From the IMG/VR virus record IMGVR_UViG_3300035520_000451: a DNA stretch of 64,000 nt; one strand, 5' to 3'. Origin of the DNA: a virus (taxonomy: Duplodnaviria; Heunggongvirae; Uroviricota; Caudoviricetes). Positions 6,334 through 64,000 of the stretch are shown in pieces. Within the stretch, counting starts at the first letter, position 1, and each line of letters begins with the position of its first letter. The notes below the pieces were generated by a model. The model searched no databases and was not told where the DNA came from. It worked only from the letters and a program-made list of their open reading frames with translations. A program made the translations under genes and the position numbers.

Positions 6334-6368
6334 GCCGGACTATACCTCAACCTTATAACAATTACTTA

Positions 6369-7187: not shown

Positions 7188-7377
7188 AACTGCTAATTCT
7201 CCAGTATCTTTACCTGAGTTATACTCAGATACTAAATTTTCTATTTCCTACTCAGTCCATTTTTTAATCATAATACATATATTTAATTTAAATTTATTAT
7301 ATGCAAATATAATAATTATTTAGGACAGATTAAAATAGTTAATACCTTAGAAATAAAATTAATAGAAAAATTGTAAT

Positions 7378-8682
7378 TTATGGAAATTTTTCACCTGTAT
7401 CTGTTCCAATAGAATGTAGATCAACATGAATTCTTCCAGTTACTGGATTAATAGCGTCTAACCAGTTTTGACCATAAGTAGATACAACTTTTGAGGCGGC
7501 TTGATACTTTAAAAATATAGCAAGAATAGGAAATTTATCAACTTGAGAACTAATTAACGTAGCATTAATGGACTTCTTTTCTTTTTTAGTCTTTTTATCA
7601 AAAGTTGTAACTTGTATCCCAAGAAGTTCAAATAATTTTATAACTTGAGTAGAACTACTCCAATTTATAGTGCATTGTGGCCCTATGTCATTACATTCTT
7701 CAAATAAGGATAATTGTAAATTTATAGATACAAATTTTCCTTTTATTTTATATCTGTAACACTCCATAGAATCATCTTTTTCGGGAAATCGAATAAATCC
7801 TAATGCTACTAATTTTTCTTTTTCTTTTTTATTTTTAGCATATCTATATAAATATTCTTTAGCATCTAAATCTATAACAAATTTATTTAATTGTGACTCA
7901 GCTTCTCTTAAAGAAGCTTGATCATTTTTCATTTTTTCTTTCCATTTAGAAATATCCAAATGAACTCCACAGAATTTTACATATGCTAAAAATTTAATAA
8001 ATTCACATTCAAATTCTGCAGCCTTTAAAAGATCTTGAGTAGATAATTCTTCTAGTTGCTTTTCTTTTATAGGCTCTAGCCACATTACATCCCCAGCAGC
8101 ATATACTACAACATCTTCTGTTAAACCTTCATTTATAATTTTTCCTCGAACAGTTTTGTCAATATCTACTCCAAGTCTTCTTTTTGCAGTAGCTCGTAAA
8201 GAATAAGATAATTCCCAATGTTCTTTAGTTTTTTCGTCGGGAGCAATATATTCATAACAAGAAGGTTTAATTCCATATGTCTGTACTATTTCGGTAGCTA
8301 ATACTCTAGGATACCCTAAATATATTAATTGTTCTACTACCATAGTATCATAAACATGATTGGGCCAAATATTTTGTTTATATAAAAAGGTTAAATCAAA
8401 CATTATATTATGCCCCAAGAACACTCTATCAGACTCTAGATATTCTTTTAAAATAGACTTTTCAGAAGGACTTATAGTTCTCCAATCAAATACAACTTGA
8501 TTTTCAGTACACCCTAATTGCAAAGTAAGTAATTCCTTCGTAAAACAATCTAATCCTTTAGTTTCTGTATCTAATTGTACCTCTTTTAAAGGATATAAAA
8601 TATCCATAGCCTCCTTAAAGTCTACTTCTCTATATCTTTCTGGAGAATATAGTTTTTTATCTTTACTTACTAAATAAATCAT
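7378..8682 (-). CDS. family-A DNA polymerase, N-terminal part (3'-5' exonuclease domain and thumb)
   Basis: Exo I motif LDTETKGLD; C-terminus NPVTGRIHVDLHSIGTDTG aligns to Pol I NPKTGRLHTSYHQAVTATG immediately before the motif-A region. Confidence 0.8.
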   Translation of the reverse strand: MIYLVSKDKKLYSPERYREVDFKEAMDILYPLKEVQLDTETKGLDCFTKELLTLQLGCTENQVVFDWRTISPSEKSILKEYLESDRVFLGHNIMFDLTFLYKQNIWPNHVYDTMVVEQLIYLGYPRVLATEIVQTYGIKPSCYEYIAPDEKTKEHWELSYSLRATAKRRLGVDIDKTVRGKIINEGLTEDVVVYAAGDVMWLEPIKEKQLEELSTQDLLKAAEFECEFIKFLAYVKFCGVHLDISKWKEKMKNDQASLREAESQLNKFVIDLDAKEYLYRYAKNKKEKEKLVALGFIRFPEKDDSMECYRYKIKGKFVSINLQLSLFEECNDIGPQCTINWSSSTQVIKLFELLGIQVTTFDKKTKKEKKSINATLISSQVDKFPILAIFLKYQAASKVVSTYGQNWLDAINPVTGRIHVDLHSIGTDTGEKFP

Positions 8683-14916: not shown

Positions 14917-15825
14917 TCATTTTGTTGCAGAACTGACTATATCTTCATCCTTCTCTTTTACAGAGTTAGGAGCCTCGCATTTCGAATCACTTGATTCTAC
15001 TCCCATTTCAGGGATAGTCGATGAACCTTCAACAGATATATTATCTGAAGCTTGGCTGCTGATTATCATCTCAGACGTTCCAGCAATTAACGAGGTGTCC
15101 TCTAAGGATTTCTCCTTAGACGCACAAAATATTTGTTCAAATTTTAATTTTTTTTCATTACACCAAATAGGTGATTTAGAATACATATATTCATACAAAT
15201 TTCGCATTTGTTTTCTACCAGAATATTCCATTGTGCAAACTTTATCACACGTAGGAGTGTTAGGATTCTTCGCTTTACTAAAATTTAATTTAGTTTTTTT
15301 AGAAACAATACCCTGTTGAATTAAAAAATCCTGTAAAGAACTTATAAATTCAGAATTGCCAGTAAAAGTAAATTTTACATTATGAACTATTCTATTTCTA
15401 TATTCTCCAGGCTTCTTTTCATTTTTTACAGTCATTACTTTACGTTTACCGTTCCAAACACAACCATCCCCGTCAAAATATCCTAAAATAAAAGAAGACA
15501 TTAATTCAATAGGAATAAAAGTTGGAAAAGTAAGAGTTAAAGATTTATTGCGGATTGCTCCTAGTTTTATCAAATCGGAACATAATTTTACACTATTAAA
15601 AGTAAGTCTATAAATATTGGGACTGTAACTCTTTATAGGATATTCGGAATTTAATGCTTTATTAATTTTTTCTAATATATCAATTCTTTCACCTAATTGA
15701 TCTAATTCTAGACAATCTTCTCGATTATACCCATCTGCATATATAAAGCCTAATATATATGCTTGTTCATGAGTTTTTAACTCATTAAAATAATTTTCAT
15801 TAAAATAGTATTTTCTAGTACTCAT
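14917..15825 (-). CDS. LAGLIDADG homing endonuclease
   Basis: ILGFIYADGY and ILGYFDGDGCV motifs. Confidence 0.8.
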   Translation of the reverse strand: MSTRKYYFNENYFNELKTHEQAYILGFIYADGYNREDCLELDQLGERIDILEKINKALNSEYPIKSYSPNIYRLTFNSVKLCSDLIKLGAIRNKSLTLTFPTFIPIELMSSFILGYFDGDGCVWNGKRKVMTVKNEKKPGEYRNRIVHNVKFTFTGNSEFISSLQDFLIQQGIVSKKTKLNFSKAKNPNTPTCDKVCTMEYSGRKQMRNLYEYMYSKSPIWCNEKKLKFEQIFCASKEKSLEDTSLIAGTSEMIISSQASDNISVEGSSTIPEMGVESSDSKCEAPNSVKEKDEDIVSSATK

Positions 15826-17051: not shown

Positions 17052-18065
17052 TTATAATTCTTTTATATGTTTAACTCGTTGTTCGACCTCCTGTTGCTTA
17101 CCAACGTTAAATGACGTCTTGTAGTCTCCGGTAAGGTAGCCTGTTACACGACGTAATCGTTTGATATTTTTACTACCGCACATAGGACAAGTATCATTCA
17201 ATTCATCAATATAACCACAGTCTTGACAAGAATCATTTGGTACATTAATGGCAAAGTATGGAATATCATGATCCATTGCATAATTAACAATCTCTTCAAT
17301 AGCTTCTGGATTATGCTTAGTAGAAGCAGGTAATTCAACATAAGTTATACAACCTGCACTACTGAAACCAGTAAGCTGTGATTCAATTTCAATTTTCTCA
17401 AATGGAGTGCATTCATGCCATACAGGTACGTGCATACTATTAGTAAAGAACTCACGTTCTGTAATTCCTGGAACTTCGCCAAATTGCTTCTTAAATTTCT
17501 GCATTGCTGTATAACACAGATTTTCAGCAGGAGTATAGTAAACACCAAAATTAAGTTTATAAGCTTCTTTGAATTCACTACATCTCTTCTTAAAGAGAGC
17601 TTCTAATTCTTTAGCTTTATCCATAATTTCTGAATCAGTGTGGTCTTTACCGAAAATAATTCTCAAAGCTTCTGATAATCCTAATTGACCAATAGCTAAA
17701 GTACCATGTTTTAATGCTGAACGGATACCTTCTTCAGGTTTATATCCATACATTACATTATTTTGATACATAAACTTAGCGGATGCAGCATCTTGACTAC
17801 ATATCCAATCAAATCGTTCAATTAGCATATCTTTTGCTTCATGAATCTTAGTATCCAACAATTCAATAAATTTATTCCATACTAAATCCTTGATATTTAC
17901 ATCTGCATTATCCATATTAGATATAGCTTGCAGTTTAGAATTCATTGCAAGTGTAGGAAGTATGATTGTAACAGGACAGATATTACCTCTACCATCTTTA
18001 AGTTGACCAAAACCATTAATATCCCAGCCATTCGCAGTTCTACACATTTTACCCAATGTCACCAT
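17052..18065 (-). CDS. nrdD: anaerobic ribonucleotide reductase NrdD, exon 2 (glycyl-radical domain)
   Basis: C-terminal Zn ribbon CQDCGYIDELNDTCPMCG and glycyl radical motif RVTGYL; MCRTANG aligns to E. coli NrdD MGCRSFLG. Confidence 0.85.
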   Translation of the reverse strand: MVTLGKMCRTANGWDINGFGQLKDGRGNICPVTIILPTLAMNSKLQAISNMDNADVNIKDLVWNKFIELLDTKIHEAKDMLIERFDWICSQDAASAKFMYQNNVMYGYKPEEGIRSALKHGTLAIGQLGLSEALRIIFGKDHTDSEIMDKAKELEALFKKRCSEFKEAYKLNFGVYYTPAENLCYTAMQKFKKQFGEVPGITEREFFTNSMHVPVWHECTPFEKIEIESQLTGFSSAGCITYVELPASTKHNPEAIEEIVNYAMDHDIPYFAINVPNDSCQDCGYIDELNDTCPMCGSKNIKRLRRVTGYLTGDYKTSFNVGKQQEVEQRVKHIKEL

Positions 18066-18331
18066 CGGAACTGACTATATGTTCATTCCTTGTTTCACAA
18101 CAAAGAGTTGTCTCTTGTTTGGAATCGGTGCTTATCTCCGATCCTACAGGGCTACACTCATCACCCTTAGTCGATACACATTCTGTACTAATATAACTAT
18201 AAGTACATTAGCACGGTCTCATCTTATTATTTACACTGCAATTATATAATAAGACCTAACCGTTAGCTTCTACGCTTAAATAGAAACACCCCTTAAGCAG
18301 GGTTAAAGAGATTTTAAATGGGCTGCAGTTT
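18066..18331 (-). other. ORF-less group-I-like intron interrupting nrdD (approximate bounds)
   Basis: 266-nt GC-richer, stem-rich segment with no ORF between two halves of one NrdD reading frame. Confidence 0.55.
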
Positions 18332-19549
18332 TCACTTACCCATTGTACTGAAATAAGTGCGAGGATCGTTTATATCATACCCTTCATTACCAGACCAATC
18401 TACATTGGCATAATTAGGGTATAACCTAAGACTCGTAACCTTAGTAGCTTCTTGGAATATATCATAATTCGGATCTCCAGGTTTTCGATTAACACCTTTC
18501 ATTAATTGAACGATACAGCACGGAAAAATCGGAGTGCTATGATGGCTACCAATACCATTCTTACTTACTTCAAGTAAAGCTAGACTAATAAGACGTCCTT
18601 CAGGTTGTGTACAAGTACCATAATTAATAGAAGTAAAAGGTAATTGATTACCACTTCTACTTTGTAGAGTATTTAAATTATGATACATACCTTCAACAGC
18701 TTGATGAATTTCTCGTTTAGTCATATCCAAAGCATATTCATAAGAATTAGGATGTTCTTTATACAAACTATCTTCTATAGACAAATCTGTTTGATCGTAT
18801 TTTTCATTACGAATGTGATCAATATACTTCAATCCAGTTCTATAATGCTTATTAAAAGATAGTCTTACATAGGGAACCATAGTCCAATCTAAATGAGTTG
18901 CAGATACACCACCAAATTGTTGTAAACTTTGTACTTGGAATATTACAGCTAATAATTGAAATGCTGTATTAATACTCTTAGCAGGTCTAACATCAGTTTG
19001 CTTTAGCTTAAACCCGTTAGCAAGTAAGTCATCTACTGGTATGCTCAAACAGTTGTGCATCCCTACAGCGTAAGAATCCAAATCATGAATGTATATTTCA
19101 TTATTTTCATGATTATGCTTAGCCATTTCAGACATACAATAATTAAGAGCATAATCTTTAGTTACAACTCTACCTGCTTCGCCAATACGTCCACCAAATG
19201 AATGCTCATCAATATTAGCATTTTGATTTTTTACATTAGAAGCTTCAAGTTTAGATTTAATACCTTTAATGAGTTTATCTTTTTCAGCACGGATCATCTT
19301 ACGTTCTTCTCTATAAAGAATATAAGCTTTAGCTACATCTGAATATCCATAATCCATTAAAAGTTCTTCAACTTGATCTTGTATATCTTCAATACTGATA
19401 TTATCCCAAATCTGGACTTCATCTACAATTTCCTCAATAGTTTTAGGGATACTTTCGTACCCACATTCTTTAAATGCTGCTGAAACTGCATTTACAATTT
19501 TACTTCTATTAAACTCAGCGGGCTCACCGTTTCTTTTTGTTACTTTCAT
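18332..19549 (-). CDS. nrdD: anaerobic ribonucleotide reductase NrdD, exon 1 (ATP-cone plus barrel)
   Basis: N-terminal ATP cone (VTKRNGEPAEFNRSKI); C-terminus ends FSTMGK, continuing into exon 2. Confidence 0.85.
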   Translation of the reverse strand: MKVTKRNGEPAEFNRSKIVNAVSAAFKECGYESIPKTIEEIVDEVQIWDNISIEDIQDQVEELLMDYGYSDVAKAYILYREERKMIRAEKDKLIKGIKSKLEASNVKNQNANIDEHSFGGRIGEAGRVVTKDYALNYCMSEMAKHNHENNEIYIHDLDSYAVGMHNCLSIPVDDLLANGFKLKQTDVRPAKSINTAFQLLAVIFQVQSLQQFGGVSATHLDWTMVPYVRLSFNKHYRTGLKYIDHIRNEKYDQTDLSIEDSLYKEHPNSYEYALDMTKREIHQAVEGMYHNLNTLQSRSGNQLPFTSINYGTCTQPEGRLISLALLEVSKNGIGSHHSTPIFPCCIVQLMKGVNRKPGDPNYDIFQEATKVTSLRLYPNYANVDWSGNEGYDINDPRTYFSTMGK

Positions 19550-28000: not shown

Positions 28001-29352
28001 TACCTTAGACTTTTCATCTAAGTTGAGAGGAAGTCCCTTTTTACAGAACTGGTCGTCTTTCAGTTATGTTATCGCCAAGTTTTTTATCTTGACTTCTATA
28101 GTTTCCTATTCACTATAGCTCAGCGTACCTTTTCATCCACTTATTTCAGTTGGGATGGAAACCACTCTTGGGACTATTTTATTCTTTTACAAGTTTCAAG
28201 TCCTACGCGTTACGGTGTTACAGACTTTTTAATTTCTGTAATTACCTCGGGATTAACATCTCAGTATTCCCCGATTTTGGTTTCTAATTATCTATATGAT
28301 TCCTCATATAGACGGCAATATTCTAAAAATTTTTCATATTTTCTCGATAAATATATTGTAGAATTTTTATAAAGTTTGCACATACTTTCATAGGCGTCCT
28401 TTCCAGTTAAATTAAAATATTTAATAATACTTTGTTGTTCTGGGTGATTAATATGTAAAGTAGGTGTTTTAGAACAAATAAATTTAATAATAGAATTTAA
28501 TATTTCATCTGTTCCTAAGACAGAAACTTCTGGGCGAGTATGCTCTTTATCATTCCAAGTTAAACAGCCGTCCCCATCCCAATATCCTCTAATAAAATGA
28601 TATATCAATTCTTTAGATTTAAATAATTCAATTCTAGGAAATTTCAAAGTTAATGATTTCTTAGGAGTACAGCCATTAACATTTAAAATATTCCATAAAT
28701 GTTTAGAATATACACTTAATCTACACCTAATTTCATCTTTATATAAAGATTGCTTATATTCTAAAAATTTAGCAAACTTTTCAAGATGTTCCAAGTCTTT
28801 GATAGATAAAGATAATTCAATTTGATATTGAGTTTTAACTTCTTTTCTTAAAGGTGAAGAACTAATAGTTCCATCAGCAAATAAAAATCCTAGCCAATAC
28901 GCTTTTTCTTCAGTATCAATTGAATCAAATATATATTCATTAAAATTCGCTTTTCCTAAAATTTTTATATCAGGATAATAAGTAGAAATATAGTCAGATA
29001 GTTCATTAGCACTAATTTTAAATTCTGACGCTAATTCTTTAATATTTGTATTAGGAAAACCTCCCAATTCAACATATTTATCAGCTGCATATTTATATTT
29101 AGCACAGGAAACTATATTCTTTCCTTTTTCTATTTTATAAAATCCTAATTCCTTAAATCTATTTATAATTATTTGTTCTGTATCTTTATAATTTCTAGTT
29201 ACTTCTGAAAGAGTTTTTTCACCTCTTAAAAGTAAGTTAATAAGATCATCAAGATTTAAATTTTTATAAAATTTCATATTTCTATATATTAATTACTATT
29301 TCCATATAAATATACGAAATATGTTTTATAAAACAAAATTAATTTTTAGATT
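28001..29352 (-). mobile_element. group-I-like intron carrying a LAGLIDADG homing endonuclease gene
   Basis: GC-richer, stem-rich 290-nt non-coding core (28001-28287) plus HE ORF, located between two halves of one phosphoesterase frame. Confidence 0.55.
28288..29277 (-). CDS. LAGLIDADG homing endonuclease
   Basis: YWLGFLFADGTI and IRGYWDGDGCL motifs. Confidence 0.8.
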   Translation of the reverse strand: MKFYKNLNLDDLINLLLRGEKTLSEVTRNYKDTEQIIINRFKELGFYKIEKGKNIVSCAKYKYAADKYVELGGFPNTNIKELASEFKISANELSDYISTYYPDIKILGKANFNEYIFDSIDTEEKAYWLGFLFADGTISSSPLRKEVKTQYQIELSLSIKDLEHLEKFAKFLEYKQSLYKDEIRCRLSVYSKHLWNILNVNGCTPKKSLTLKFPRIELFKSKELIYHFIRGYWDGDGCLTWNDKEHTRPEVSVLGTDEILNSIIKFICSKTPTLHINHPEQQSIIKYFNLTGKDAYESMCKLYKNSTIYLSRKYEKFLEYCRLYEESYR

Positions 29353-46786: not shown

Positions 46787-47383
46787 TTATAAAAAATCTA
46801 CAAATACATAAGAATTCTCCTTAAAATTATGGTTTCCATAAAATTTATTCCATAACCAAGGGATAGGTAAATAAGTATGCCAAGAAGAACCATCTAAATT
46901 TTTATATCCTTGTTCATATTTAGGACAATATTCTCCTTGCCATATCGAATGCCATTCTGGTTTCTTTACATTAATAGAAGTTAGATTAAATGTTCCAAAA
47001 ACATATCCATCATAACTACTGATATAACTATCTACGAAATTTTTTATATCTTCTATAAACACAGATTCCGTAATAAATTCAGGAAGTTTACCTTCATAAG
47101 TCACCATTAAATTTACATTATCAGAACCACCTAAAGCGTATAAAATACTATTTAAAGCATCTGAAAAAGTACATTTAGACTTCCATAATCCGTGACATAC
47201 CCTAAATCTACCAATATCCATATACCCATCATATTTAATTCTTATATCAAAATAGGTACATCCAGATAATACTTGGTCTCTCAATGTTTTAGATTGAGTT
47301 CTGGCAAATGGAATTAATAAGCTATATAGAATATTCTTAGAAGATTCTCCAGTACCTGAATTGTGAGTTGCTATTAAATTCAT
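46787..47383 (-). CDS. putative PI-PLC X-domain-like phosphodiesterase
   Basis: LIATHNSGTGE resembles the bacterial PI-PLC IPGTHDSGT active-site motif. Confidence 0.35.
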   Translation of the reverse strand: MNLIATHNSGTGESSKNILYSLLIPFARTQSKTLRDQVLSGCTYFDIRIKYDGYMDIGRFRVCHGLWKSKCTFSDALNSILYALGGSDNVNLMVTYEGKLPEFITESVFIEDIKNFVDSYISSYDGYVFGTFNLTSINVKKPEWHSIWQGEYCPKYEQGYKNLDGSSWHTYLPIPWLWNKFYGNHNFKENSYVFVDFL

Positions 47384-47940: not shown

Positions 47941-47985
47941 ATTTTAAACAAAAATGGAGGAACTATAAAAGTCCCTCCAGTATAA

Positions 47986-49914
47986 TTATTTAGTACTTCC
48001 AAACACTTTCTTAACAGTATCTGCAATAGGCAAATTACCAAGAATATCCATTGCAGGACTGAGATTCTTAGCCATATTAGACATAAAGTTACCAGCAGTA
48101 TTTTCACCACCATAAACAGTAACTTGACCAAGCTGAATATGCTCATATATCTTAGCTTGTGCTGTAGCAATATCTGCTAATTGATCTACTGTTTTATAAT
48201 TTACAACAAGTTCAGGAGTCAATCCAGCTTCAATCATTTGCTTAACAGCAAGCGCAGGAGCCATCTCAATAGCTTGTACCTTATCTGCCTCAGCCATTAA
48301 AGAAGCTCTTTTACCCTCTGCTTCTGCTAAAAGTTTCTTTTTAGTACCCTCTGCTTCTGCTTCTAACTTAGTTTGAGTAGCATTTGCTTCAGCATAAGCT
48401 TTAGTTCGAATAGCTTCTGCTTCTGCCTGTGCTTCTAGAATAGCTTTTTGTTTAATCGCTTCAGCTTCAATACGAATTTTCTCCTTCTCAGTTTCAGCTG
48501 GAACAATAACTTCAGCATTCAATTTAGCTTGTTCTGCTAAAGCTTTAGCTTCGTTTACTTCTATTTGTTTCTCTTGTTCAATTTTAGCAATTGACATTTG
48601 AGCCTCTACTTTAGAAGTACCAGCAACTTTTATTGCTTCTGCTTCTGCTTTGGCTGCTTCTCCTTTAGCTTGTGCTACTTCAATAGTTGCGCGTTGCTCT
48701 GCTACTCCAGCTTTCTTATTAGCTTCTGCTGCTTTCTGTCTCTTAGTAGATTCATACTCTGCAACTTTAGCTTGCTGGTCATTAATTGCTTTTTGAGTTT
48801 CAGCTTCTTTTTCTTGCTGTGCTTTAGCAATTCTAATTTGTTTCTGAGCTTCTGCTTCTGCTTTTGCAGATTCTGCTTCTGAATTAGACTTGGCTACTGA
48901 CGCAATAGCTTCTGCTTTTCTAGCTGCTTTAGCTGATTCAGCTTCAGATTCTGCTTTAGCAACATTAGCTTCTTTAATCGCATCTGCTTCTGCTTGTGCA
49001 GTTATTGCTTTAGTTTTAGCATTAGCTACATTAGCAGCCTGTTCAGCTTGTTGTTCTGCGACTCCAGTAGTCTTAATCTTTTCAGCTTCTGCCAATTTAA
49101 TTTGCTTATCCTGATTAATTTCAGCTACTCTTACTTCCTGCTCTTGCTGAGTCTGAGCTACTTGAGTAGCACGCTCTTTTTCAGCACTAGCAACAGCAAT
49201 TTCCCTTTCCTTGTTAGTTTCGGCAATTTGAATTTGACCCTTCTTTTCTTCTTCTGCAATATCTGCTTCTGCTTGAGCTTGAGCTTTAGTGGCTGCTTTC
49301 TTACCTAAATTCTTAATATAATTTGCATCATCAGAAATATCTGCATTATTAATATTAATAATAGTGAAACCTACTTTATTAATTTCAGTTTCAATGTTCT
49401 CTTTTGCTTTACCTAAGAATTTACCGCGATCAGCATTAATTTCTTCAATGGTCATAGTAGCCATAAGACTACGCATTTCACCAATAAGAATATCCTTAAT
49501 TTGATTAGCAATTTCTTCTAATTCAGCATTTAAGAAACGACTAGCAGCATTTTGCATAAGCTCCTGAGTAGTACCAATACCAGTAGTTAATGTTACAGGA
49601 ATAGTTACTTTAATCATTTGGCTAGATACTCCAACTACAGAAGTTTGAATCTGTATAGGAGTTAAAGACATTTTTTGCCAATCTTGAATAATCGGAAATA
49701 CAAATGTACCTCCGCCATGAATAATTTTAGAAGGCAAAACAACTGTTTCGCTCTTGCCAGTTTCTGGATTAATCTGGGTTTTCTTTCCAGCTTTACCAAA
49801 TACTACAAGAATTTCATCACTTGCGCATCTACGATAACGCGACATTAGACCAATTACGGTCAACACTACAAGAACTACAAGAATTCCTGCAACAATAAAA
49901 CTAGTTTGTAACAT
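47986..49914 (-). CDS. SPFH/band-7 flotillin-like membrane protein with long Ala/Glu/Lys-rich coiled coil
   Basis: N-terminal TM, SPFH-like core, then about 300 aa of AKAEAEA-type repeats (flotillin YqiK/FloT-like architecture). Confidence 0.65.
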   Translation of the reverse strand: MLQTSFIVAGILVVLVVLTVIGLMSRYRRCASDEILVVFGKAGKKTQINPETGKSETVVLPSKIIHGGGTFVFPIIQDWQKMSLTPIQIQTSVVGVSSQMIKVTIPVTLTTGIGTTQELMQNAASRFLNAELEEIANQIKDILIGEMRSLMATMTIEEINADRGKFLGKAKENIETEINKVGFTIININNADISDDANYIKNLGKKAATKAQAQAEADIAEEEKKGQIQIAETNKEREIAVASAEKERATQVAQTQQEQEVRVAEINQDKQIKLAEAEKIKTTGVAEQQAEQAANVANAKTKAITAQAEADAIKEANVAKAESEAESAKAARKAEAIASVAKSNSEAESAKAEAEAQKQIRIAKAQQEKEAETQKAINDQQAKVAEYESTKRQKAAEANKKAGVAEQRATIEVAQAKGEAAKAEAEAIKVAGTSKVEAQMSIAKIEQEKQIEVNEAKALAEQAKLNAEVIVPAETEKEKIRIEAEAIKQKAILEAQAEAEAIRTKAYAEANATQTKLEAEAEGTKKKLLAEAEGKRASLMAEADKVQAIEMAPALAVKQMIEAGLTPELVVNYKTVDQLADIATAQAKIYEHIQLGQVTVYGGENTAGNFMSNMAKNLSPAMDILGNLPIADTVKKVFGSTK

Positions 49915-49925
49915 TTAAAAGTTTT

Positions 49926-50447
49926 TTAGATAAAATAAATACCATCCCTATAATTAAGAATAGTTCTGATGTCTCCGGCACTAACGGGATCTCGTGATAT
50001 ACAATTTATTTCACAAGAGCCATTTACGATACAAATACATTTATAAGGATCTGCCATTGTTAAATAAACGGTTACCTTAGTACCTATCAAGTCTTTTCCC
50101 GATTTAGAAACAGGTTCATAGTTTAATTTTAAAATAAATCTATAAATGTAATATAAAATAACTACAAATATTAAACCTATTGCAATAGCTATAATATTAT
50201 TAAGTAATGTAGTAGAATTTGTTAAAATAATCCACCCAGAATAACCCATTAAGAAATGAATTAGTCCTTTAAATGAACACAAATCACTTACATTAAAATC
50301 TATATTACCATCAAGATCAATATCAAGATCAATATCTCCTAGAGCTAAGGCAGCAATAAATTGTATTATAAAAGTACAATAGGAAAATATTCCTATTATG
50401 TAATATATGTCCATATTATTTTGTGTTAAAACAATATCCAAAACCAA
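49926..50447 (-). CDS. NfeD-like membrane protein (SPFH partner)
   Basis: N-terminal TM helices plus C-terminal beta-rich soluble domain (GTKVTVYL...), encoded immediately upstream of the flotillin-like gene as in nfeD-floT operons. Confidence 0.5.
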   Translation of the reverse strand: MVLDIVLTQNNMDIYYIIGIFSYCTFIIQFIAALALGDIDLDIDLDGNIDFNVSDLCSFKGLIHFLMGYSGWIILTNSTTLLNNIIAIAIGLIFVVILYYIYRFILKLNYEPVSKSGKDLIGTKVTVYLTMADPYKCICIVNGSCEINCISRDPVSAGDIRTILNYRDGIYFI

Positions 50448-50727
50448 GTCTAGTTGTTATATTGGAACTATACTCTTTTATCTTCTTCCGCAGTCTAGAA
50501 ATTGTAGTATCTACTGTTCTTAAAGATGTGGGGCTTTTCCAAATTTCTTTAATCAAAGTTCCCCTAGAATGTACATAATTTGGATGTTCTAATAAAAAAG
50601 TTAATAATTCATATTCCTTTTTAGAGAGGGGAATTTCTTCTTCATCAATTAAACATAACTTTCTATCAGAATCTATTGTTAATGTTTTGTATTGCATGGT
50701 AATTATAAATAATATTTCTAATTCCAC
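50416..50727 (-). CDS. stand-alone OmpR/PhoB-type winged-helix DNA-binding protein
   Basis: LSKKEYELLTFLLEHPNYVHSRGTLIKEIW...LRTVDTTISRLRKKI...TRLGFGYCF matches the trans_reg_C domain pattern; no receiver domain. Confidence 0.6.
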   Translation of the reverse strand: MELEILFIITMQYKTLTIDSDRKLCLIDEEEIPLSKKEYELLTFLLEHPNYVHSRGTLIKEIWKSPTSLRTVDTTISRLRKKIKEYSSNITTRLGFGYCFNTK

Positions 50728-51069: not shown

Positions 51070-52665
51070 TTATATTGTTAACCTATTAAGAAGTTCTTGA
51101 TCCATAGCAGATTCAAACAATTCTAATGCGTTTTTAGGAGTACTTTTCTTCTTAGTTCCTAATATAAATGATATAATAGAAGGATCATATCCAGACAAAT
51201 GATAAAAATTGGGAGCATCTGCAAAATCTTCAAACTTAGGTTTAGAAGATGTCCAAGTTGGAATATCCCATAGTATAATTTTAAAATTATCTATATATTC
51301 TTTATCAAATCCAGCTCTTCTAAGTCTATCAATTGCCTTATTAAAATTAGAAACAGTACCACAACTATCAAATTGCCCGTCTGAAATGCAAAGAATACCT
51401 TCTGGAAAAGATGTACAACCAAGCATTTTCATGTTAATAAACAAATCAATAACACTTTGAAAATTAGTATTTCCAATGCTATAGTGCGTGTCATTTAAAT
51501 ATTTATCAACGGGAGTTAAACCTTTCCATTTGTGTAAAACACAAGTATCATTAAATTCGGCATAAGTATCTTTAAATTTACCTGTTAAAGCAGTTGAAAA
51601 ATATAATGCAAGAGCTTTAGCAATGGTAAATGCAGTTACTTTACAACCAGGAACCATACTCATCATAGAACCTGAAGTATCTCTAACAACTAATAATTTA
51701 GAAGGAGATTCTTGCAATAAATTCTTGAATTGTGCATTAATAGTGTACTTTACATATTCTGGAACTTGGGTAACATTTTCACAAGGTTTAAAGAGTTCAA
51801 ATACATATCCAGTATATTTAGCTATAGGTTGATTTTTAATCCATTCTAAGTATTTGTTAGAAAGATTTTGATTTTCTAAAAATTTAGAATTAACTAAAAG
51901 GGATAAAGCACGCCCAGAAACGGAATTAAAATCTATTTTATCAAATAATCGTTTAGATATTAATTGCTGCCATTTATGAGCAGAACCTTTACTTTTAAGT
52001 TTTCTATATTCTTTAAAAGATTCTTTAGAATTAAATAAACTTTTAGCTATCCATCTGCCTATTATAGTATCTGCTTGTGATTTTATTGTAGTTGCTTTAG
52101 AATTAGTCTTTATAGTAGGAAGATATTTTCTAACAAGATTAGTACAATTTTTATTACTTAATCCAGCTTGAATAACTCCTAGCATAAAATTCCAATCTAA
52201 AACACGATTATTCCAACCATGATATTGTAAATCTAAATTTAGCATTGTGAAAATATCTTTCCAAGAACCCGCTAATATAAATATAGAAATATTAGATTTA
52301 AAAGTATTAGGATGATTAATTGCAATCCAGATTATTCTTAGAATGCCCTCATTTTTCAATCCTTGTCCTTTTTGTACTTCTAATATTTCATCATCATTTT
52401 TAGTAGCTCTTGTAATCATTCGGATATAAACTGCTAATTTAAGACACTTTAAAGGATCTACATTCCATAAAAGTTCCATGTCATTAGCTACTTCAGAATA
52501 TGCTCTAGGATCTCTAAAAGAACCAATACTAGCAAAATTATCTATAAAAGCATTTCCAGAAGTTGAATATTTTACAGCTCCGTTTTCTGAAACTGTTTCA
52601 TATTGATTTTTTACATCAATAGACTCATCAAAGAGATTTGTTAATTTTTTGTCAAACATAATCAT
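51070..52665 (-). CDS. vWA-domain protein (MIDAS DxSGS), possible Ro60/TROVE-like architecture
   Basis: VVRDTSGSMMS (MIDAS) and ILCISDGQFD vWA motifs in the C-terminal third; about 330-aa N-terminal domain of unknown type; total 531 aa. Confidence 0.4.
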   Translation of the reverse strand: MIMFDKKLTNLFDESIDVKNQYETVSENGAVKYSTSGNAFIDNFASIGSFRDPRAYSEVANDMELLWNVDPLKCLKLAVYIRMITRATKNDDEILEVQKGQGLKNEGILRIIWIAINHPNTFKSNISIFILAGSWKDIFTMLNLDLQYHGWNNRVLDWNFMLGVIQAGLSNKNCTNLVRKYLPTIKTNSKATTIKSQADTIIGRWIAKSLFNSKESFKEYRKLKSKGSAHKWQQLISKRLFDKIDFNSVSGRALSLLVNSKFLENQNLSNKYLEWIKNQPIAKYTGYVFELFKPCENVTQVPEYVKYTINAQFKNLLQESPSKLLVVRDTSGSMMSMVPGCKVTAFTIAKALALYFSTALTGKFKDTYAEFNDTCVLHKWKGLTPVDKYLNDTHYSIGNTNFQSVIDLFINMKMLGCTSFPEGILCISDGQFDSCGTVSNFNKAIDRLRRAGFDKEYIDNFKIILWDIPTWTSSKPKFEDFADAPNFYHLSGYDPSIISFILGTKKKSTPKNALELFESAMDQELLNRLTI

Positions 52666-52814
52666 TTAATTTTTACAGCTCAAAAAAGTATTAATGACGA
52701 TTGTCACTAATACTGTAAGGAATAAAACCAGATGGCATCATAGCATAAGGTGCATTCTCGAAATACCACTTAACGAATTTTTTGAGTCTTTTCATAATCT
52801 TTAATTTTAAAATG

Positions 52815-53324
52815 TTAATTATAGATGCCATTACGCATCAATTTATATTCTCTGTTTCTTCTTAACTTATGTCCTTTTGTTGGACATCTTAAGGATTTCA
52901 CTGCTGCTAATGTAAATTCAAAATCTTGGATATTAAAAGTGCCATTAGAAACTCTACAATTTGATAATCTACGATAGAATTCTGAACTTGCTACCCCATA
53001 TTCACCGCAATTATAAATTAAACTTCCTAAACCGTCAATAAAACCTTGAGTATATTTAACTTTAGGAAGTTCTTTTAAGAGCCTACTAATAGCATTATTA
53101 ACTTCTGTAATATCTTGAACAAATAATTGCTCTGCTTTAGCTTTAGTTATTCTTTTATATGATTCACCTTTTTTATTAAGATGTCCATATCCAATTTGAT
53201 TTCTTGCATCAACAGTAAGAATTAATCCTTCATGCTCTTTGATAAATTCATGTCCTTTAACAGACACTTGTTGAGCATACCCATTTAATGTAAAAAATAC
53301 TAAAATCTGTAAAATCTTCTTCAT
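52815..53324 (-). CDS. GH24 (T4-type) lysozyme with N-terminal signal or SAR segment
   Basis: EHEGLILTVDARNQIGYGHL resembles T4 lysozyme [22 protein letters not shown]; N-terminal hydrophobic MKKILQILVFFTLNGYA. Confidence 0.65.
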   Translation of the reverse strand: MKKILQILVFFTLNGYAQQVSVKGHEFIKEHEGLILTVDARNQIGYGHLNKKGESYKRITKAKAEQLFVQDITEVNNAISRLLKELPKVKYTQGFIDGLGSLIYNCGEYGVASSEFYRRLSNCRVSNGTFNIQDFEFTLAAVKSLRCPTKGHKLRRNREYKLMRNGIYN

Positions 53325-61814: not shown

Positions 61815-62596
61815 AATCTCTATAATTTAGTAATTAATAAATAAGTTTATTTGTTATTCGAAGCTGGTGGGGGGACTAGGTGCTCAGTATACTCTCTCCC
61901 TCATAATTTCCAAAAATTTTATTTATTGCATAATTTTTATAAATTTTTTCCTTCCCAATTTCAGTCTTAATTTTAATTCTCGGGAATTGGAGAATAGGGG
62001 GGGGGATTAAATTTAAGTACCTAATTATTTTGTGCATATAGATAAAATGGTTATATTTAAATATGCCAACACAAAATAATTATTCGGATTAGGGCATTCA
62101 CTTAATTGACTAGGATACTTTAGAATAGGACTAGTTGTGGGATGCAGATTAGGTAAAGTATTATTAGAATTTATAGAACTTCTACAACAATAATTACTTT
62201 GGATATGGGTTAGTTGGAAATCAAACTCATTTTAATCCTAGAACGTAGTAGAATTAGATTTAGTCCAGTTTTGATTATACTAAAGAGAATGCGAAGTAGC
62301 ATATATTAGTACCATTACTTACATTAGGTGGTGAATAGTTATTGCGATGGGGATTTACACCTGTAGAAATTGGAAGTGGTGCAGAAGCAATAGTAAGCAG
62401 TGCTCCATTATCTTCTACAGTTACTAAAGTAACTACAATTCCTAGAGCAGAAATGCACATTAGAAATATGATTCCAGGAGCTGTAAAGTCTACTTTCGTA
62501 AAAAGAGTTAATAATCTTAATACTTATACTTAGAATAAAGTAAGAATTTTATCTAAGGATTAGTTATAGAAAGCTCTTCAATCTCTAGAAAAGATT

Positions 62597-62800
62597 ATGA
62601 ATAAGAAAGGTTGGACAAAAGTAACTCATCCTAATTTAGATGGAATAGGATTTACAAATGGACGTTTTGTAGTAAGTGATTTAGGTGAAGGAAATGTTGG
62701 AAGAGATATTTTCGGACGAACTAGATTAACCGACTTCACTGTAGAGACAGTTCCAGAATTTAAAGCAGCTATGGAACGTAAAGGAGGTATTTTAAAATAA
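62597..62800 (+). CDS. hypothetical protein
   Basis: 67-aa plus-strand ORF after the strand switch. Confidence 0.35.
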   Translation: MNKKGWTKVTHPNLDGIGFTNGRFVVSDLGEGNVGRDIFGRTRLTDFTVETVPEFKAAMERKGGILK

Positions 62801-62867
62801 TTTAACATAATTCAGTAGCATACTTAAATTTAAAGTATTATATTTGCTTATAAAATGAAATGAAAAT

Positions 62868-63155
62868 ATGGAAGAGTTATTTAAATTATTAGAAGAATTA
62901 TACGGTAATGATCCCGTAGCTGAATTCAAAAAGAATTTGGATGAATTAGATGATGACATCTTCTTAAAAGTAGCAGAAGAGTTATCAGAAAAGAAAGTAG
63001 ATTTACACTTGTTAGACAAAGTTTTAGAAAAAGAAAAGAGAACTGAATCGGAAGATTTGTATCTTGAATATATGATGACTCTTATTAATACAATAGTAAG
63101 AAAGCATCTTAAAAATAGAATTAGCGAGTTAACCAGAATGTTAGATAAATTTTAA
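62868..63155 (+). CDS. hypothetical protein
   Basis: 95-aa ORF with AGGAG-like SD. Confidence 0.45.
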   Translation: MEELFKLLEELYGNDPVAEFKKNLDELDDDIFLKVAEELSEKKVDLHLLDKVLEKEKRTESEDLYLEYMMTLINTIVRKHLKNRISELTRMLDKF

Positions 63156-63173
63156 TAGCTTCGGCTATTAAAC

Positions 63174-63467
63174 TCTCCGATGGTGTAATGGCAGCACAGG
63201 ACACTCTTGAATTAAATAGGAGCTTTATATAGAAATATATAAATGAAAACTTCCCTAATAAACAGAAACCTCGATATTGGAAACTTTATCTTTGGCGATG
63301 GCTTACTAAATTCAGCTTGTCTGATAAATGGCGTAGAGACTATATAGGAAGCACCTTTAAAATGGTGAAGAAATAGTCCAGACTACAATACCTTTAAAAT
63401 GGTAGCTTGTGTAAAAGCAAGTGTGGTACGAAATGTTTTAGTCTAGGTTCGAGTCCTAGTCGGAGGA
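63174..63467 (+). tRNA. candidate intron-containing (split) tRNA; anticodon region CTCTT(G)A, putative Lys-CTT, ambiguous
   Basis: 5' half TCTCCGA-TG-GTGT-AATGGCA-GCAC-A-GGACA-CTCTTGA at 63174-63212; 3' half TGTTT-TAGT-CTAGG-TTCGAGT-CCTAG-TCGGAGG-A at 63434-63467; acceptor strands complementary (one G-U); about 220 nt intervening. Confidence 0.4.
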
Positions 63468-63469
63468 CT

Positions 63470-63787
63470 ATGGGAACAATATTTAAATATAATAATCAAT
63501 TGTATCAATGCAACTCTTTAGAAAAGAAATTAAAGAGGATGAAGATTACCCAAGACGATATAGAGGTAATAATGGATTGTGAAGATGCTGAGAAATGGTT
63601 TAATACACTAGTAAATACTCAAGAAAAAGAATCTGAGGAAGATAATATTTACAAATACTACTTTGTCAATGATAAAGGTGAATCTATTACTTCTATTTAC
63701 AATGAAGTACCAGAAGGTTATAAACCAACAACTTATAAACAATTATTAGAATTATGGAACAAACATGTGAAAGAGTTATTGACTTAG
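63470..63787 (+). CDS. hypothetical protein (start likely at MGTIFKY, not the listed upstream Met)
   Basis: GGAGGA precedes the ATG at 63470; the listed start at 63407 would overlap the tRNA 3' half. Confidence 0.4.
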   Translation: MGTIFKYNNQLYQCNSLEKKLKRMKITQDDIEVIMDCEDAEKWFNTLVNTQEKESEEDNIYKYYFVNDKGESITSIYNEVPEGYKPTTYKQLLELWNKHVKELLT

Positions 63788-64000
63788 TAAAAGAGATATG
63801 GAATAATATTGAGAAGGCTGGGATGCAGGATGCCCAGTTTGCAATTAATTTCCTTGACGAACTTAATAAATTGAGCGTTATTCATTAAATGGGATCTTAT
63901 ACTGACTATGGAGAACTACTTGCCGAGTACAGAAGAGTATAGACAAGACATGTTAAAGAAATTAGAGATGAAATAAAAAGACTTCGCTAGGATTTAGGAG

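What the first reader, a model, noticed from the sequence alone, without database searches (positions are those of the whole stretch)
47986..50727. Phage-encoded flotillin (SPFH) and NfeD operon with an adjacent stand-alone OmpR-type wHTH protein
Gene order on the minus strand is wHTH (50416-50727), NfeD-like membrane protein (49926-50447), then a 642-aa SPFH/flotillin-like protein with an about 300-aa Ala/Glu/Lys coiled coil (47986-49914). This copies the bacterial nfeD-floT (yuaF-yuaG/yqiK) operon. SPFH/NfeD pairs organise membrane microdomains and protease complexes. This is an uncommon cargo for a phage and sits inside the replication and tRNA region. Possible roles include remodelling host membrane, superinfection exclusion, or anti-defence.
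Basis: partly seen in the sequence, partly recalled or inferred. Interest (0 to 1): 0.6.

Follow-up and report, generated by a model that had tools for sequence, protein, structure and literature searches.

The report
Phage-borne flotillin–NfeD membrane scaffold operon
A large crAss-like gut phage carries a two-gene flotillin/NfeD membrane-scaffold operon homologous to one in its Bacteroidales hosts, conserved across a whole clade of abundant gut phages but never discussed in the literature searched, so what these phages do to the host membrane is an open, testable question.

Summary
On the minus strand lie a stand-alone OmpR/PhoB-type winged-helix protein (50416-50697), a three-TM membrane protein (49926-50414) and a 642-aa flotillin (47986-49914).

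- **Flotillin:** shown by sequence (Pfam Band_7 E=4.6e-21; best solved relatives are flotillin-1/2).
- **Origin:** both genes have homologues in the same order in Prevotellaceae/Bacteroidia chromosomes, so the pair was most likely taken from hosts, probably at least twice.
- **Phage-specific change:** this clade's flotillin wall helix is about 100 aa longer through an internal duplication. Both genes are under purifying selection.
- **wHTH:** a separate phage regulator, adjacent only in this lineage.

Databases already label relatives "flotillin" and "NfeD-like", but no paper found discusses the pair. I rate it a new member of a known kind. Its role in infection is unknown; I favour a phage-built membrane microdomain cage. 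Interest is moderate.

The parts
47986..49914 (-). Flotillin (SPFH) gene, 642 aa. Layout: N-terminal TM helix (about 4-28) followed by the basic, Cys-containing SRYRRC; SPFH domain (33-224); very long helical wall (197-465, including a phage-lineage duplication at about 265-385); invariant IVPAE break (466-472); second helix (473-562); C-terminal region (563-642).
   Evidence: Pfam Band_7 76.1 bits against a cut-off of 23.6; Flot PF15975 16.2 bits, below its cut-off of 27. NCBIfam FloT model E=2e-40 but 139 bits against a cut-off of 700. Best PDB sequences are flotillin-2/-1 (9l3g, 9bq2) at E about 1e-23. Foldseek top hits are flotillin complex chains, on a low-confidence model. Hydropathy and composition. 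Duplication. dN/dS 0.09-0.14.
49926..50414 (-). Short NfeD-like partner gene, 162 aa. Layout: TM1 (3-25), acidic GDxDxDxDxDG loop, conserved SFKGxxHF helix (48-65), TM3 (70-97), C-terminal OB-fold beta domain (about 106-161).
50416..50697 (-). Stand-alone OmpR/PhoB-type winged-helix DNA-binding protein, 93 aa from ATG 50697 (103 aa if GTG 50727 is used). It has no receiver domain. It is a neighbour of the pair, not a conserved operon member.
   Evidence: Pfam Trans_reg_C 71 bits against 26.2. Best NCBIfam model is Bacteroidetes-type PhoB, positions 132-225 of 225 only, E=4.7e-29. PDB: OmpR/PhoB-family DNA-binding domains. All 75 homologues found are 57-127 aa, nearly all 93-104 aa, and stand-alone. 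Position relative to the pair varies.
47946..47979 (-). Intrinsic-terminator-like hairpin (10-bp stem, 5 G-C pairs, then TTTTTGTTT). It starts 7 nt after the flotillin stop and ends just before the ATG of the next ORF.
   Evidence: Consensus scan: 7 terminator-like sites found against 2.1 +/- 1.4 in shuffles. Sequence read directly. Function not shown.
52687..52714 (-). Terminator-like hairpin (12-bp stem plus T-run) just upstream of the DUF2828 gene. It is the putative upstream boundary of a five-gene unit: DUF2828/DUF7788, ORF97, wHTH, NfeD, flotillin.
   Evidence: Inference from a consensus match only.

Best explanation
This is a two-gene nfeD-floT module most likely taken from Bacteroidales hosts and carried in the replication-gene region of a large crAss-like phage. 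The genome is about 154 kb and looks Zeta-group-like.

Shown here:
- The 642-aa protein is a flotillin-type SPFH protein with an N-terminal membrane anchor.
- The 162-aa protein is a divergent short NfeD, with three TM helices and a C-terminal OB domain.
- The two genes are inseparable in every phage relative examined and are under purifying selection.
- Both genes have homologues in the same order in Prevotellaceae/Bacteroidia chromosomes.
- The flotillin of this phage clade has a wall helix lengthened by about 100-120 residues through internal duplication.

Inferred from solved SPFH complexes (flotillin 44-mer, HflK/C, QmcA-YbbJ with 26 heterodimers):
- After infection the flotillin inserts in the host inner membrane with its SPFH domain on the cytoplasmic face. 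Basic residues follow both its TM helix and the last TM helix of NfeD, which points to that orientation.
- It oligomerises through its 11-residue-periodic helix into a closed dome that fences off a membrane patch.
- The NfeD helices sit in that patch, and the NfeD OB domain binds the flotillin and promotes or stabilises assembly.

Most likely role, least certain: the phage builds its own, taller membrane microdomain cages to keep the host inner membrane and selected membrane proteins stable or sequestered during a long productive or carrier-state infection.

The adjacent wHTH is a separate, receiver-less and therefore probably constitutively DNA-binding phage transcription factor. Its linkage to the pair is specific to this lineage.
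For: - Identity of the flotillin.
- Identity of the NfeD.
- Synteny: 89 of 89 phage loci, mostly with gaps of 0-37 nt.
- Bacterial counterparts: same gene order in 11 of the 12 bacterial loci where the sequence extends that far, at 44-55% GC, flanked by GH2 beta-galactosidase, fucosidase and acetyl-xylan esterase genes.
- Purifying selection in phages: dN/dS 0.09-0.14 for flotillin and 0.12-0.34 for NfeD.
- Phage context: replication genes, tRNAs, a lysozyme, IMG/VR relatives of 90-190 kb, primase nearest to crAss-like phages.
- Zeta-like features: split DNAP and NrdD, large genome.
- Coil: hendecad periodicity and duplication, 59.7 bits against 36.1 +/- 3.7 for shuffles.
- Cage architecture of SPFH/NfeD complexes: PMC12624060 and PMC13086221.
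- Repeated acquisition: csAssE-Sib flotillin is 68% identical to a Prevotella flotillin but 43-54% identical to the other phage flotillins.
Against: - No expression, localisation or interaction data exist, so the cage and the NfeD-flotillin contact are inferred by homology only.
- The flotillin monomer model is poor (pLDDT 57).
- PF01957 does not recognise this NfeD, and the profile match to YuaF is only E=0.021.
- The C-terminal Flot domain is below threshold in the phage protein.
- The biological role is a guess among several options. Deletion of bacterial SPFH genes often gives weak phenotypes (PMC13086221).
- The direction of transfer, host to phage or phage to host, is not proven by an NJ tree with midpoint rooting.
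- Zeta-group membership was not tested with TerL or MCP.
Confidence: 0.6

Rival explanations
1. Protease or proteostasis control. The phage flotillin/NfeD cage encloses or titrates a host membrane protease such as FtsH, or acts as an ATP-independent holdase. That would stabilise phage or host membrane proteins, as HflK/C-FtsH controls lambda CII and as S. aureus FloA-NfeD stabilises unfolded proteins.
For: This is the SPFH paradigm: HflK/C forms a cage around FtsH, and FloA-NfeD has a chaperone-like role, as cited in PMC13086221. Foldseek also lists HflK/C and FtsH-HflKC entries among the structural relatives. The epsilon crAss-like relatives that carry the pair encode repressor and anti-repressor genes (PMC11054128), so a lysis/lysogeny-type decision could exist.
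Against: The protein is flotillin-type, not HflK/C-type, and its best sequence and fold matches are flotillin-1/2. The NfeD is the short form with no ClpP-like protease domain. No protease gene is linked to the pair in any of the phage or bacterial loci examined. This explanation is compatible with the best explanation as a downstream role.
Confidence: 0.15
2. Superinfection exclusion or counter-defence. The cage alters the inner membrane so that DNA injection by other phages, or membrane-depolarising abortive-infection effectors, fail.
For: It is a membrane-located accessory module in a phage, sits in the replication-gene region, and is conserved across a clade. Host membrane-remodelling proteins are known to affect phage outcomes, for example DynA (PMC8844932) and the SPFH protein YdjI linked to PspA (PMC8581546), both found.
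Against: No match to any PADLOC defence model. Exclusion genes are usually small, fast-evolving and lineage-specific. This pair is large, conserved at 70-90% identity within subclades, under purifying selection, and homologous to a chromosomal housekeeping-type operon.
Confidence: 0.12
3. A three-gene regulated operon. The wHTH is the dedicated regulator of nfeD-floT, and the three genes form one functional system.
For: There is a 1-nt gap between the wHTH stop and the NfeD start in this phage. The genes share a putative terminator-bounded unit. A wHTH homologue lies within 2.5 kb of the pair in a subclade, 14 of 89 phage loci.
Against: In that subclade the wHTH sits upstream in some genomes and downstream in others. 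It is absent within 5 kb in 75 of 89 phage loci. In the commonest human-gut lineage it lies among unrelated genes elsewhere in the genome. No bacterial nfeD-flotillin locus has it.
Confidence: 0.08
4. The coiled-coil protein is a virion structural or ejection protein, or the region is bacterial DNA misassembled into a phage contig.
For: Long Ala/Glu/Lys coils occur in tape-measure and ejection proteins. The 48-50 kb segment has higher GC (36.5%) than its flanks.
Against: The only PHROG hit is an SPFH family labelled 'lipoprotein' in the category 'other'; no structural family matched. The protein has an SPFH domain and a TM anchor. The same pair occurs in 80 independent IMG/VR contigs and in the complete genome of csAssE-Sib. 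The locus is identical in independent assemblies (L006-L009). The higher GC is explained by the Ala-rich coil.
Confidence: 0.03

Closest known systems
Bacterial yuaF-floT (nfeD2-floT) operon of Bacillus subtilis, and yqiJ-yqiK of E. coli
   Different: This one is encoded by a phage. The flotillin scores 139 bits against the 700-bit cut-off of the FloT equivalog model. The NfeD is too divergent for PF01957 and carries a family-specific acidic DxDxDG-like loop and an SFKGxxHF motif. The flotillin wall helix is about 100 aa longer.
Chromosomal NfeD-like/flotillin operon of Prevotellaceae and other Bacteroidia (for example Xylanibacter muris, Prevotella sp. 885, Leyella stercorea)
   Same: It is a direct homologue of both genes in the same order. 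NfeD identity is 27-40% and flotillin identity 37-49%. The bacterial NfeD has the same motifs and also gets no Pfam hit.
   Different: The bacterial flotillins are 522-547 aa. They lack the 13-aa SPFH insertion, the duplication of about 95-120 aa in the coil, and the 10-11-aa C-terminal insertions of the phage clade. The loci have 44-55% GC against 29-39% and sit among glycoside-hydrolase genes. Purifying selection is stronger, with dN/dS of 0.02-0.07.
E. coli QmcA(YbbK)-YbbJ SPFH-NfeD cage (PDB 8z5g) and the eukaryotic flotillin-1/2 44-mer (9bq2, 9l3g)
   Different: QmcA is stomatin-type, not flotillin-type. Eukaryotic flotillins have no TM helix and no NfeD partner. The phage wall helix is about 150 residues longer than in human flotillin-2, because query residues 290-438 have no counterpart. 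Assembly was not observed here.
SPFH-domain ORFs listed in other phages (T4-like 44RR, Aeh1, RB43; PHROG 200; Enterococcus and Listeria phage SPFH ORFs)
   Same: They are phage-encoded SPFH-domain proteins (PMC1524935).
   Different: Those match only the SPFH domain, at about 29-30% identity over residues 24-204. They are not flotillin-type with the long helix. No NfeD partner is reported for them in the paper read.
csAssE-Sib (epsilon crAss-like phage, OR575929) 'flotillin family protein' with an upstream 'transmembrane protein'
   Same: It has the same two-gene arrangement in a crAss-like phage. Identities to this window are 40% (flotillin) and 31% (NfeD-like).
   Different: Its flotillin (566 aa) groups with Prevotella chromosomal flotillins at 68% identity and lacks the insertions of this window's clade, so it was probably acquired separately. 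The paper lists it only in a supplementary table and does not discuss it.

Membership tests
SPFH / Band 7 superfamily (PF01145) | SPFH domain detected above the curated threshold | tested here: met
   76.1 bits against a gathering score of 23.6, residues 33-224 covering profile positions 6-176 of 176.
Flotillin subfamily (FloT/YqiK/Flot1-2 type) | Closest relatives by sequence and fold are flotillins rather than stomatin, prohibitin or HflK/C | tested here: met
   The best PDB sequences are flotillin-2/-1 at E about 1e-23, with a second matched stretch at 439-559. Foldseek ranks flotillin complex chains first and prohibitin, stomatin and HflK/C lower, on a low-confidence model.
Flotillin subfamily (FloT/YqiK/Flot1-2 type) | N-terminal membrane anchor followed by a long Ala/Glu-rich helical region after the SPFH domain | tested here: met
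   Hydropathy segment 1-28; residues 225-560 are 66% A/E/K/Q; predicted helices at 197-291, 312-465 and 473-562; hydrophobic periodicity about 11 residues.
Flotillin subfamily (FloT/YqiK/Flot1-2 type) | C-terminal Flot domain (PF15975) above threshold | tested here: inconclusive
   The phage protein scores 16.2 bits against a cut-off of 27 (E=0.011). Of the bacterial homologues, L100 scores 29.1 (passes) and L093 scores 26.5 (just below).
FloT equivalog (NCBIfam NF058507) | Whole-protein score at or above the curated cut-off | tested here: not met
   139 bits against a cut-off of 700. It is a flotillin-type protein but not an equivalog of Bacillus FloT.
Flotillin subfamily (FloT/YqiK/Flot1-2 type) | Assembly into a membrane-bound oligomeric ring or dome | not testable with these tools
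   Only a monomer model was possible (pLDDT 57). This needs cryo-EM/ET or a multimer prediction.
NfeD, short form (PF01957; YuaF/YbbJ type) | Match to the Pfam NfeD C-terminal domain model | tested here: not met
   No hit for the window protein even at E<=10, nor for the bacterial homologues. PF01957 is, however, the most frequent Pfam hit among family members: 4 of 97, best E=6e-5.
NfeD, short form (PF01957; YuaF/YbbJ type) | C-terminal OB-fold beta-barrel like solved NfeD partner-binding domains | tested here: met
NfeD, short form (PF01957; YuaF/YbbJ type) | Sequence-profile relationship to a characterised NfeD | tested here: inconclusive
   The 97-sequence profile gives YuaF (2k14) as the top PDB hit, but at E=0.021. 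The alignment spans the whole C-terminal domain, profile 102-170 against YuaF 8-77. The 15-sequence profile found nothing.
NfeD, short form (PF01957; YuaF/YbbJ type) | N-terminal multi-pass membrane region, and the gene directly upstream of and co-oriented with an SPFH gene | tested here: met
   Three predicted helices at 3-25, 48-65 and 70-97. The gene is adjacent to a flotillin gene in 89 of 89 phage loci and in 11 of the 12 bacterial loci where the sequence extends that far.
NfeD, short form (PF01957; YuaF/YbbJ type) | Physical binding to the partner SPFH protein | not testable with these tools
   Needs co-purification or a complex structure.
OmpR/PhoB-family response regulator | Winged-helix effector domain (Trans_reg_C, PF00486) | tested here: met
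   71 bits against a cut-off of 26.2, residues 30-100 of the 103-aa form. The PDB matches are OmpR/PhoB-family DNA-binding domains.
OmpR/PhoB-family response regulator | N-terminal phospho-accepting receiver domain | tested here: not met
   The protein is 93 aa and aligns only to positions 132-225 of the 225-position Bacteroidetes PhoB model. All 75 homologues found are 57-127 aa. It is an effector domain alone, not a response regulator.
crAss-like phages, Zeta group (Yutin et al. 2021) | Placement by TerL/MCP phylogeny | not tested
   The structural genes are outside the window.
crAss-like phages, Zeta group (Yutin et al. 2021) | Genome of 145-192 kb, dense introns and inteins, complex replication and dNTP-metabolism gene set | tested here: met
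   The contig carrying the identical NfeD gene is 153,638 bp. Relatives are 150-192 kb. DNAP and NrdD are split around endonuclease-like ORFs. The primase is nearest to crAss-like phages at 37-39%. The group description comes from PMC7886860. These features are consistent with the group but do not prove membership.

The most novel reading that the evidence does not exclude
Two deep-branching lineages of large crAss-like phages independently captured the Bacteroidales nfeD-floT operon. One lineage then re-engineered it by duplicating the wall helix and adding an SPFH insertion. The result would be a phage-specific, taller membrane cage that does not co-assemble with the host's own flotillin. 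That cage would act as a dedicated membrane compartment needed for these phages' persistent, non-lytic style of replication, for example by anchoring replication or assembly or by shielding the membrane from lysis or abortive-infection triggers. If so, this would be the first viral use of an SPFH cage as an infection organelle in bacteria.
Probability: 0.15. Interest if true: 0.8.

Novelty: new member of a known kind. Interest (0 to 1): 0.45.

Why it matters
Flotillin/NfeD operons are widespread in bacteria, yet their physiological role is still debated and knockout phenotypes are often weak. A phage that keeps such an operon under purifying selection across a whole clade of very abundant human-gut viruses, and that has remodelled the scaffold by lengthening the wall helix, gives a sharper way to ask what the cage is for. 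One can ask what fails in infection when the pair is removed, and which proteins are found inside the cage. The finding also adds a membrane-organising function to the accessory genes of crAss-like phages, whose persistence in Bacteroidales hosts is not understood. On the practical side, the NfeD partner belongs to a divergent subfamily, found in both phages and Bacteroidales, that Pfam PF01957 largely misses. Those genes are therefore mostly annotated 'hypothetical' or 'transmembrane protein'.

Tried and rejected
- **Direct Pfam/NCBIfam detection of NfeD** failed. A 15-sequence profile against PDB sequences gave only spurious TM matches.
- **PADLOC** gave no defence-system match for any of the five genes. 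There was one meaningless E=0.03 hit on ORF97.
It was rebuilt as A2.
- **AFDB Foldseek library** was unavailable.
- **Flotillin monomer model** is low confidence. I used only its secondary structure and treat the Foldseek ranking as corroboration.
- **Literature:** 'csAssE-Sib', 'crAss-like'+'flotillin', 'phage-encoded'+'SPFH' and 'flotillin'+'phage infection' found no paper describing a phage flotillin/NfeD operon. One broad multi-term search was uninformative.
- **wHTH as a conserved third operon member:** rejected on synteny.
- **Virion structural protein:** rejected.
- **Weak PI-PLC-X hint in ORF 46787-47383:** a PDB sequence search gave E about 0.4 and an IMG/VR pattern scan found nothing. 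The phage database gave only one hypothetical homologue, in crAss-like phage cr85_1. Unresolved.
- **Sigma-70 promoter scan** is not informative for a Bacteroidales host, and I did not use it.
Full report
**1. Observation**

The window has about 29% GC and almost all genes lie on the minus strand.

Two start codons should be moved. The wHTH most likely starts at ATG 50697 (93 aa) rather than GTG 50727. The membrane protein most likely starts at ATG 50414 (162 aa) rather than TTG 50447. Public gene calls have these lengths. Homologues align from these N-termini. The longer versions would overlap the upstream genes.

The spacing is tight:
- ORF97 stop, 20 nt, wHTH
- wHTH stop, 1 nt, NfeD-like gene
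- NfeD-like stop, 11 nt, flotillin

A good hairpin with a T-run starts 7 nt after the flotillin stop (47979-47946). A second one (52714-52687) lies upstream of the DUF2828 gene. A five-gene unit (DUF2828/DUF7788, ORF97, wHTH, NfeD-like, flotillin) is therefore plausibly one transcript. This rests on consensus matches only.

**2. The flotillin**

- Pfam Band_7 scores 76 bits against a cut-off of 23.6, covering the whole model. The C-terminal Flot model is below threshold.
- The NCBIfam FloT model matches at E=2e-40 but far below its equivalog cut-off.
- Among solved structures, the best sequence matches are flotillin-2 and flotillin-1 of the 44-subunit flotillin complex. Two stretches match: SPFH plus the start of the helix, and residues 439-559.
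- A hydrophobic segment (1-28) is followed by the basic SRYRRC, which places the SPFH domain on the cytoplasmic side.
- Residues 225-560 are 66% Ala/Glu/Lys/Gln.
- The AF2 monomer model is poor (pLDDT 57). It shows the expected layout: a TM helix, an alpha/beta SPFH domain, and very long helices broken at about 292-311 and at the invariant IVPAE motif. Foldseek ranks flotillin chains first.
- Hydrophobic residues in the helix repeat about every 11 residues.
- No virion structural family matches.

**3. The NfeD partner**

I therefore tested the assignment in other ways.

- **Profile.** A profile search of 1.84 billion representatives found 880 family members. In an alignment of 97 full-length members, PF01957 is the most frequent Pfam hit (4 of 97, best E=6e-5). 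The profile's best PDB sequence match is YuaF at E=0.021, aligned over the entire C-terminal domain.
- **Independent label.** The best BFVD structural match (37% identity, E=3.6e-15) is a gut-virome protein that UniProt already names 'NfeD-like C-terminal domain-containing protein'.
- **Synteny.** See section 4.

I conclude that it is a divergent short NfeD. The family has its own hallmarks: an acidic GDxDxDxDxDG loop between TM1 and TM2, and an SFKGxxHF motif.

**4. Distribution and origin**

The flotillin has thousands of relatives. The closest, at 58-77% identity, sit on contigs of 140-280 kb from human-gut metagenomes. One exact sequence occurs on 206 contigs.

A scan of IMG/VR with the NfeD-like alignment returned 80 viral contigs, mostly 90-192 kb. 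In every one of the 89 phage loci held, a flotillin gene follows the NfeD-like gene on the same strand, usually after 0-37 nt. This set includes the complete genome of the epsilon crAss-like phage csAssE-Sib and independent assemblies of this same phage.

Among 50,697 deposited phage records, only five match the flotillin, and only csAssE-Sib matches over its length. The crAss-like exemplar genomes of the other groups are in that database but do not match. The pair is therefore rare in phages generally and regular in one clade.

A scan of 185,579 species genomes found the same NfeD-like family in Prevotellaceae and other Bacteroidia, including isolates. A flotillin gene follows it wherever the sequence extends that far. 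Identities to the phage proteins are 27-40% for the NfeD-like protein and 37-49% for the flotillin. These loci have 44-55% GC. In Xylanibacter muris and Prevotella sp. 885 they are flanked by beta-galactosidase, fucosidase and acetyl-xylan esterase genes, so they are chromosomal, not prophage. One hit in a 'Gastranaerophilales' MAG is a 140-kb contig with 30.6% GC and 75% flotillin identity to the window. It is a misbinned phage contig.

In an NJ tree the long flotillins of this window's clade are monophyletic. The csAssE-Sib flotillin groups with Prevotella flotillins at 68% identity, against 43-54% to the other phage flotillins. This suggests at least two transfers between Bacteroidales and crAss-like phages. 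A midpoint-rooted NJ tree cannot fix the direction or exclude rate effects.

**5. What the phage version changed**

Compared with the bacterial and epsilon proteins (522-566 aa), flotillins of this clade are mostly 600-694 aa. They carry four additions:
- a 13-aa insertion early in the SPFH region
- about 95-120 extra residues in the wall helix
- an 11-aa insertion
- a 10-aa insertion near the C-terminus

The extra helix (265-385) matches the adjoining segment (386-512) at 40% identity over 133 residues. The score is 59.7 bits, against 36.1 +/- 3.7 (maximum 44.3) for composition-matched shuffles, so it arose by internal duplication. One natural variant, P0135 (550 aa), lacks it.

Both genes are under purifying selection in phage lineages: dN/dS is 0.09-0.14 for flotillin and 0.12-0.34 for NfeD. 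This is weaker than in bacteria, where the values are 0.02 and 0.07. dS is near saturation in some pairs.

**6. The wHTH**

It is a Trans_reg_C domain alone (71 bits). It aligns only to the C-terminal third of response-regulator models, and the best model is the Bacteroidetes-type PhoB. All 75 homologues retrieved are 57-127 aa, nearly all 93-104 aa, and lie on the same kind of large contigs.

It sits within 5 kb of the pair in only 14 of 89 phage loci:
- directly upstream in this lineage
- 2.4 kb upstream in one relative
- 0.16-1.1 kb downstream in nine relatives

In the commonest human-gut lineage it sits among unrelated genes. No bacterial locus has it. I treat it as a separate phage transcription factor. 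That receiver-less OmpR/PhoB effector domains bind DNA constitutively is established knowledge for PhoB, not something tested here.

**7. The phage**

The window encodes primase, DnaB-like and other helicases, ligase, a sigma factor, thymidylate synthase, a DNA polymerase and an NrdD each split around endonuclease-like ORFs, an RNase H, a lysozyme and four tRNAs. The primase is nearest to crAss-like phages.

Yutin et al. describe the Zeta group of crAss-like phages as having genomes of 145-192 kb, dense introns and inteins, and a complex replication and dNTP-metabolism gene set (PMC7886860). That fits this window, but I did not test membership with TerL or MCP.

**8. Mechanism**

Solved SPFH assemblies are membrane-attached rings that close into domes:
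- flotillin with 44 subunits
- QmcA-YbbJ with 26 heterodimers protruding into the cytoplasm
- HflK/C around FtsH

NfeD partners are proposed to promote oligomerisation (PMC12624060, PMC13086221).

By homology, the phage pair should build such a cage on the cytoplasmic face of the host inner membrane. The NfeD helices would sit in the enclosed patch. The lengthened wall helix would make the dome taller.

What the cage does for the phage is not shown. I favour stabilising or compartmentalising the inner membrane during prolonged infection. Protease or proteostasis control and exclusion or counter-defence are live alternatives.

**9. Novelty**

Public databases already label relatives 'flotillin' (JGI; the GenBank record of csAssE-Sib) and 'NfeD-like' (UniProt). 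SPFH ORFs have been listed in T4-like phages since 2006.

The csAssE-Sib paper lists the flotillin only in a supplementary table and calls its partner hypothetical. Yutin et al. do not mention it in the text or supplements. No paper in the searched library discusses a phage flotillin/NfeD operon.

It is a new member of a known kind. The added points are clade-wide conservation, homology of both genes to a Bacteroidales chromosomal operon, probable repeated capture, and a duplicated wall helix.

Noticed in passing
window 5389-8682; 17052-19549; 14917-15825; 28288-29277: The DNA polymerase is split into two ORFs (7378-8682 and 5389-6333) with an endonuclease-like ORF (phrog_4645, 6369-7187) between them. 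NrdD is likewise split (18332-19549 and 17052-18065). Two more phrog_4645 ORFs lie elsewhere. This looks like intron or homing-endonuclease invasion, as described for Zeta-group crAss-like phages.
   Followed up: partly
window 46787-47383 (-): This 198-aa ORF, two genes downstream of the flotillin, has a weak PI-PLC-X hit (Pfam E=0.011; PDB PI-PLC E about 0.4). It contains THNSG...FDIR...CHG, which from memory resembles the PI-PLC catalytic residues. The only homologue found is a hypothetical protein (41% identity) in crAss-like phage cr85_1. A lipid phosphodiesterase next to a flotillin would be suggestive, but this is unproven.
   Followed up: partly
window 51070-52665 (-): A 531-aa DUF2828 + DUF7788 protein (phrog_850, labelled 'RNA-binding protein', E=1.3e-40) heads the terminator-bounded unit that ends with the flotillin. 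It is not linked to the pair in other phages.
   Followed up: partly
window 49926-50414 (-), residues 26-57; also L092-L100: The NfeD-like family, in both phage and Bacteroidales members, has a conserved acidic loop GDxDxDxDxDG, which is like the DxDxDG calcium-binding motif, followed by SFKGxxHF with near-invariant Lys and His. This may be a cation-binding site beside the membrane. I do not know of it in canonical NfeD proteins.
   Followed up: no
window 47986-49914 (-), residue 30: An invariant Cys in SRYR[RK]C sits immediately after the flotillin TM helix in all phage and bacterial members aligned. This is the position where eukaryotic flotillins are S-acylated, a comparison made from memory.
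   Followed up: no
window 48001-50000: GC is 36.5% here against 27-30% in the flanks, with a strongly negative AT skew. This is explained at least partly by the Ala-rich (GCN) coil, though foreign origin may contribute.
   Followed up: partly
L045 and L084 (IMGVR_UViG_3300045988_069849, 270,378 bp): One 270-kb 'viral' contig carries two divergent copies of the NfeD-flotillin pair about 180 kb apart. It is probably a chimeric join of two related phage genomes rather than one genome.
   Followed up: no
L090 (CALUTN010000183.1, 140,120 bp): A contig binned into a 'Candidatus Gastranaerophilales' MAG has 30.6% GC and a flotillin 75% identical to this window's. It is a phage contig misassigned to a bacterial bin.
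   Followed up: partly
L088 (IMGVR_UViG_3300045988_141550, 25 kb): This 'viral' contig has a flotillin 87% identical to a Prevotella chromosomal one, but its NfeD-like protein is only 45% identical. It is either a bacterial fragment in IMG/VR or a very recent transfer.
   Followed up: no
window 52815-53324 (-): The lysozyme-family endolysin has a signal-peptide-like N-terminus (MKKILQILVFFTLNGYAQ). It sits in the replication and tRNA region, not beside the structural genes.
   Followed up: no
window 62001-64000: GC skew flips from about -0.1/-0.25 to +0.25 at the right end of the window. This suggests a switch of coding strand or a replication-related boundary.
   Followed up: no
P0331 (wHTH homologue): The commonest stand-alone wHTH homologue (418 contigs) is named in nr as a 'response regulator transcription factor [Bacteroides intestinalis]', although it sits on phage-like contigs of about 167 kb. 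This may be a host hint or phage DNA in an isolate assembly.
   Followed up: partly
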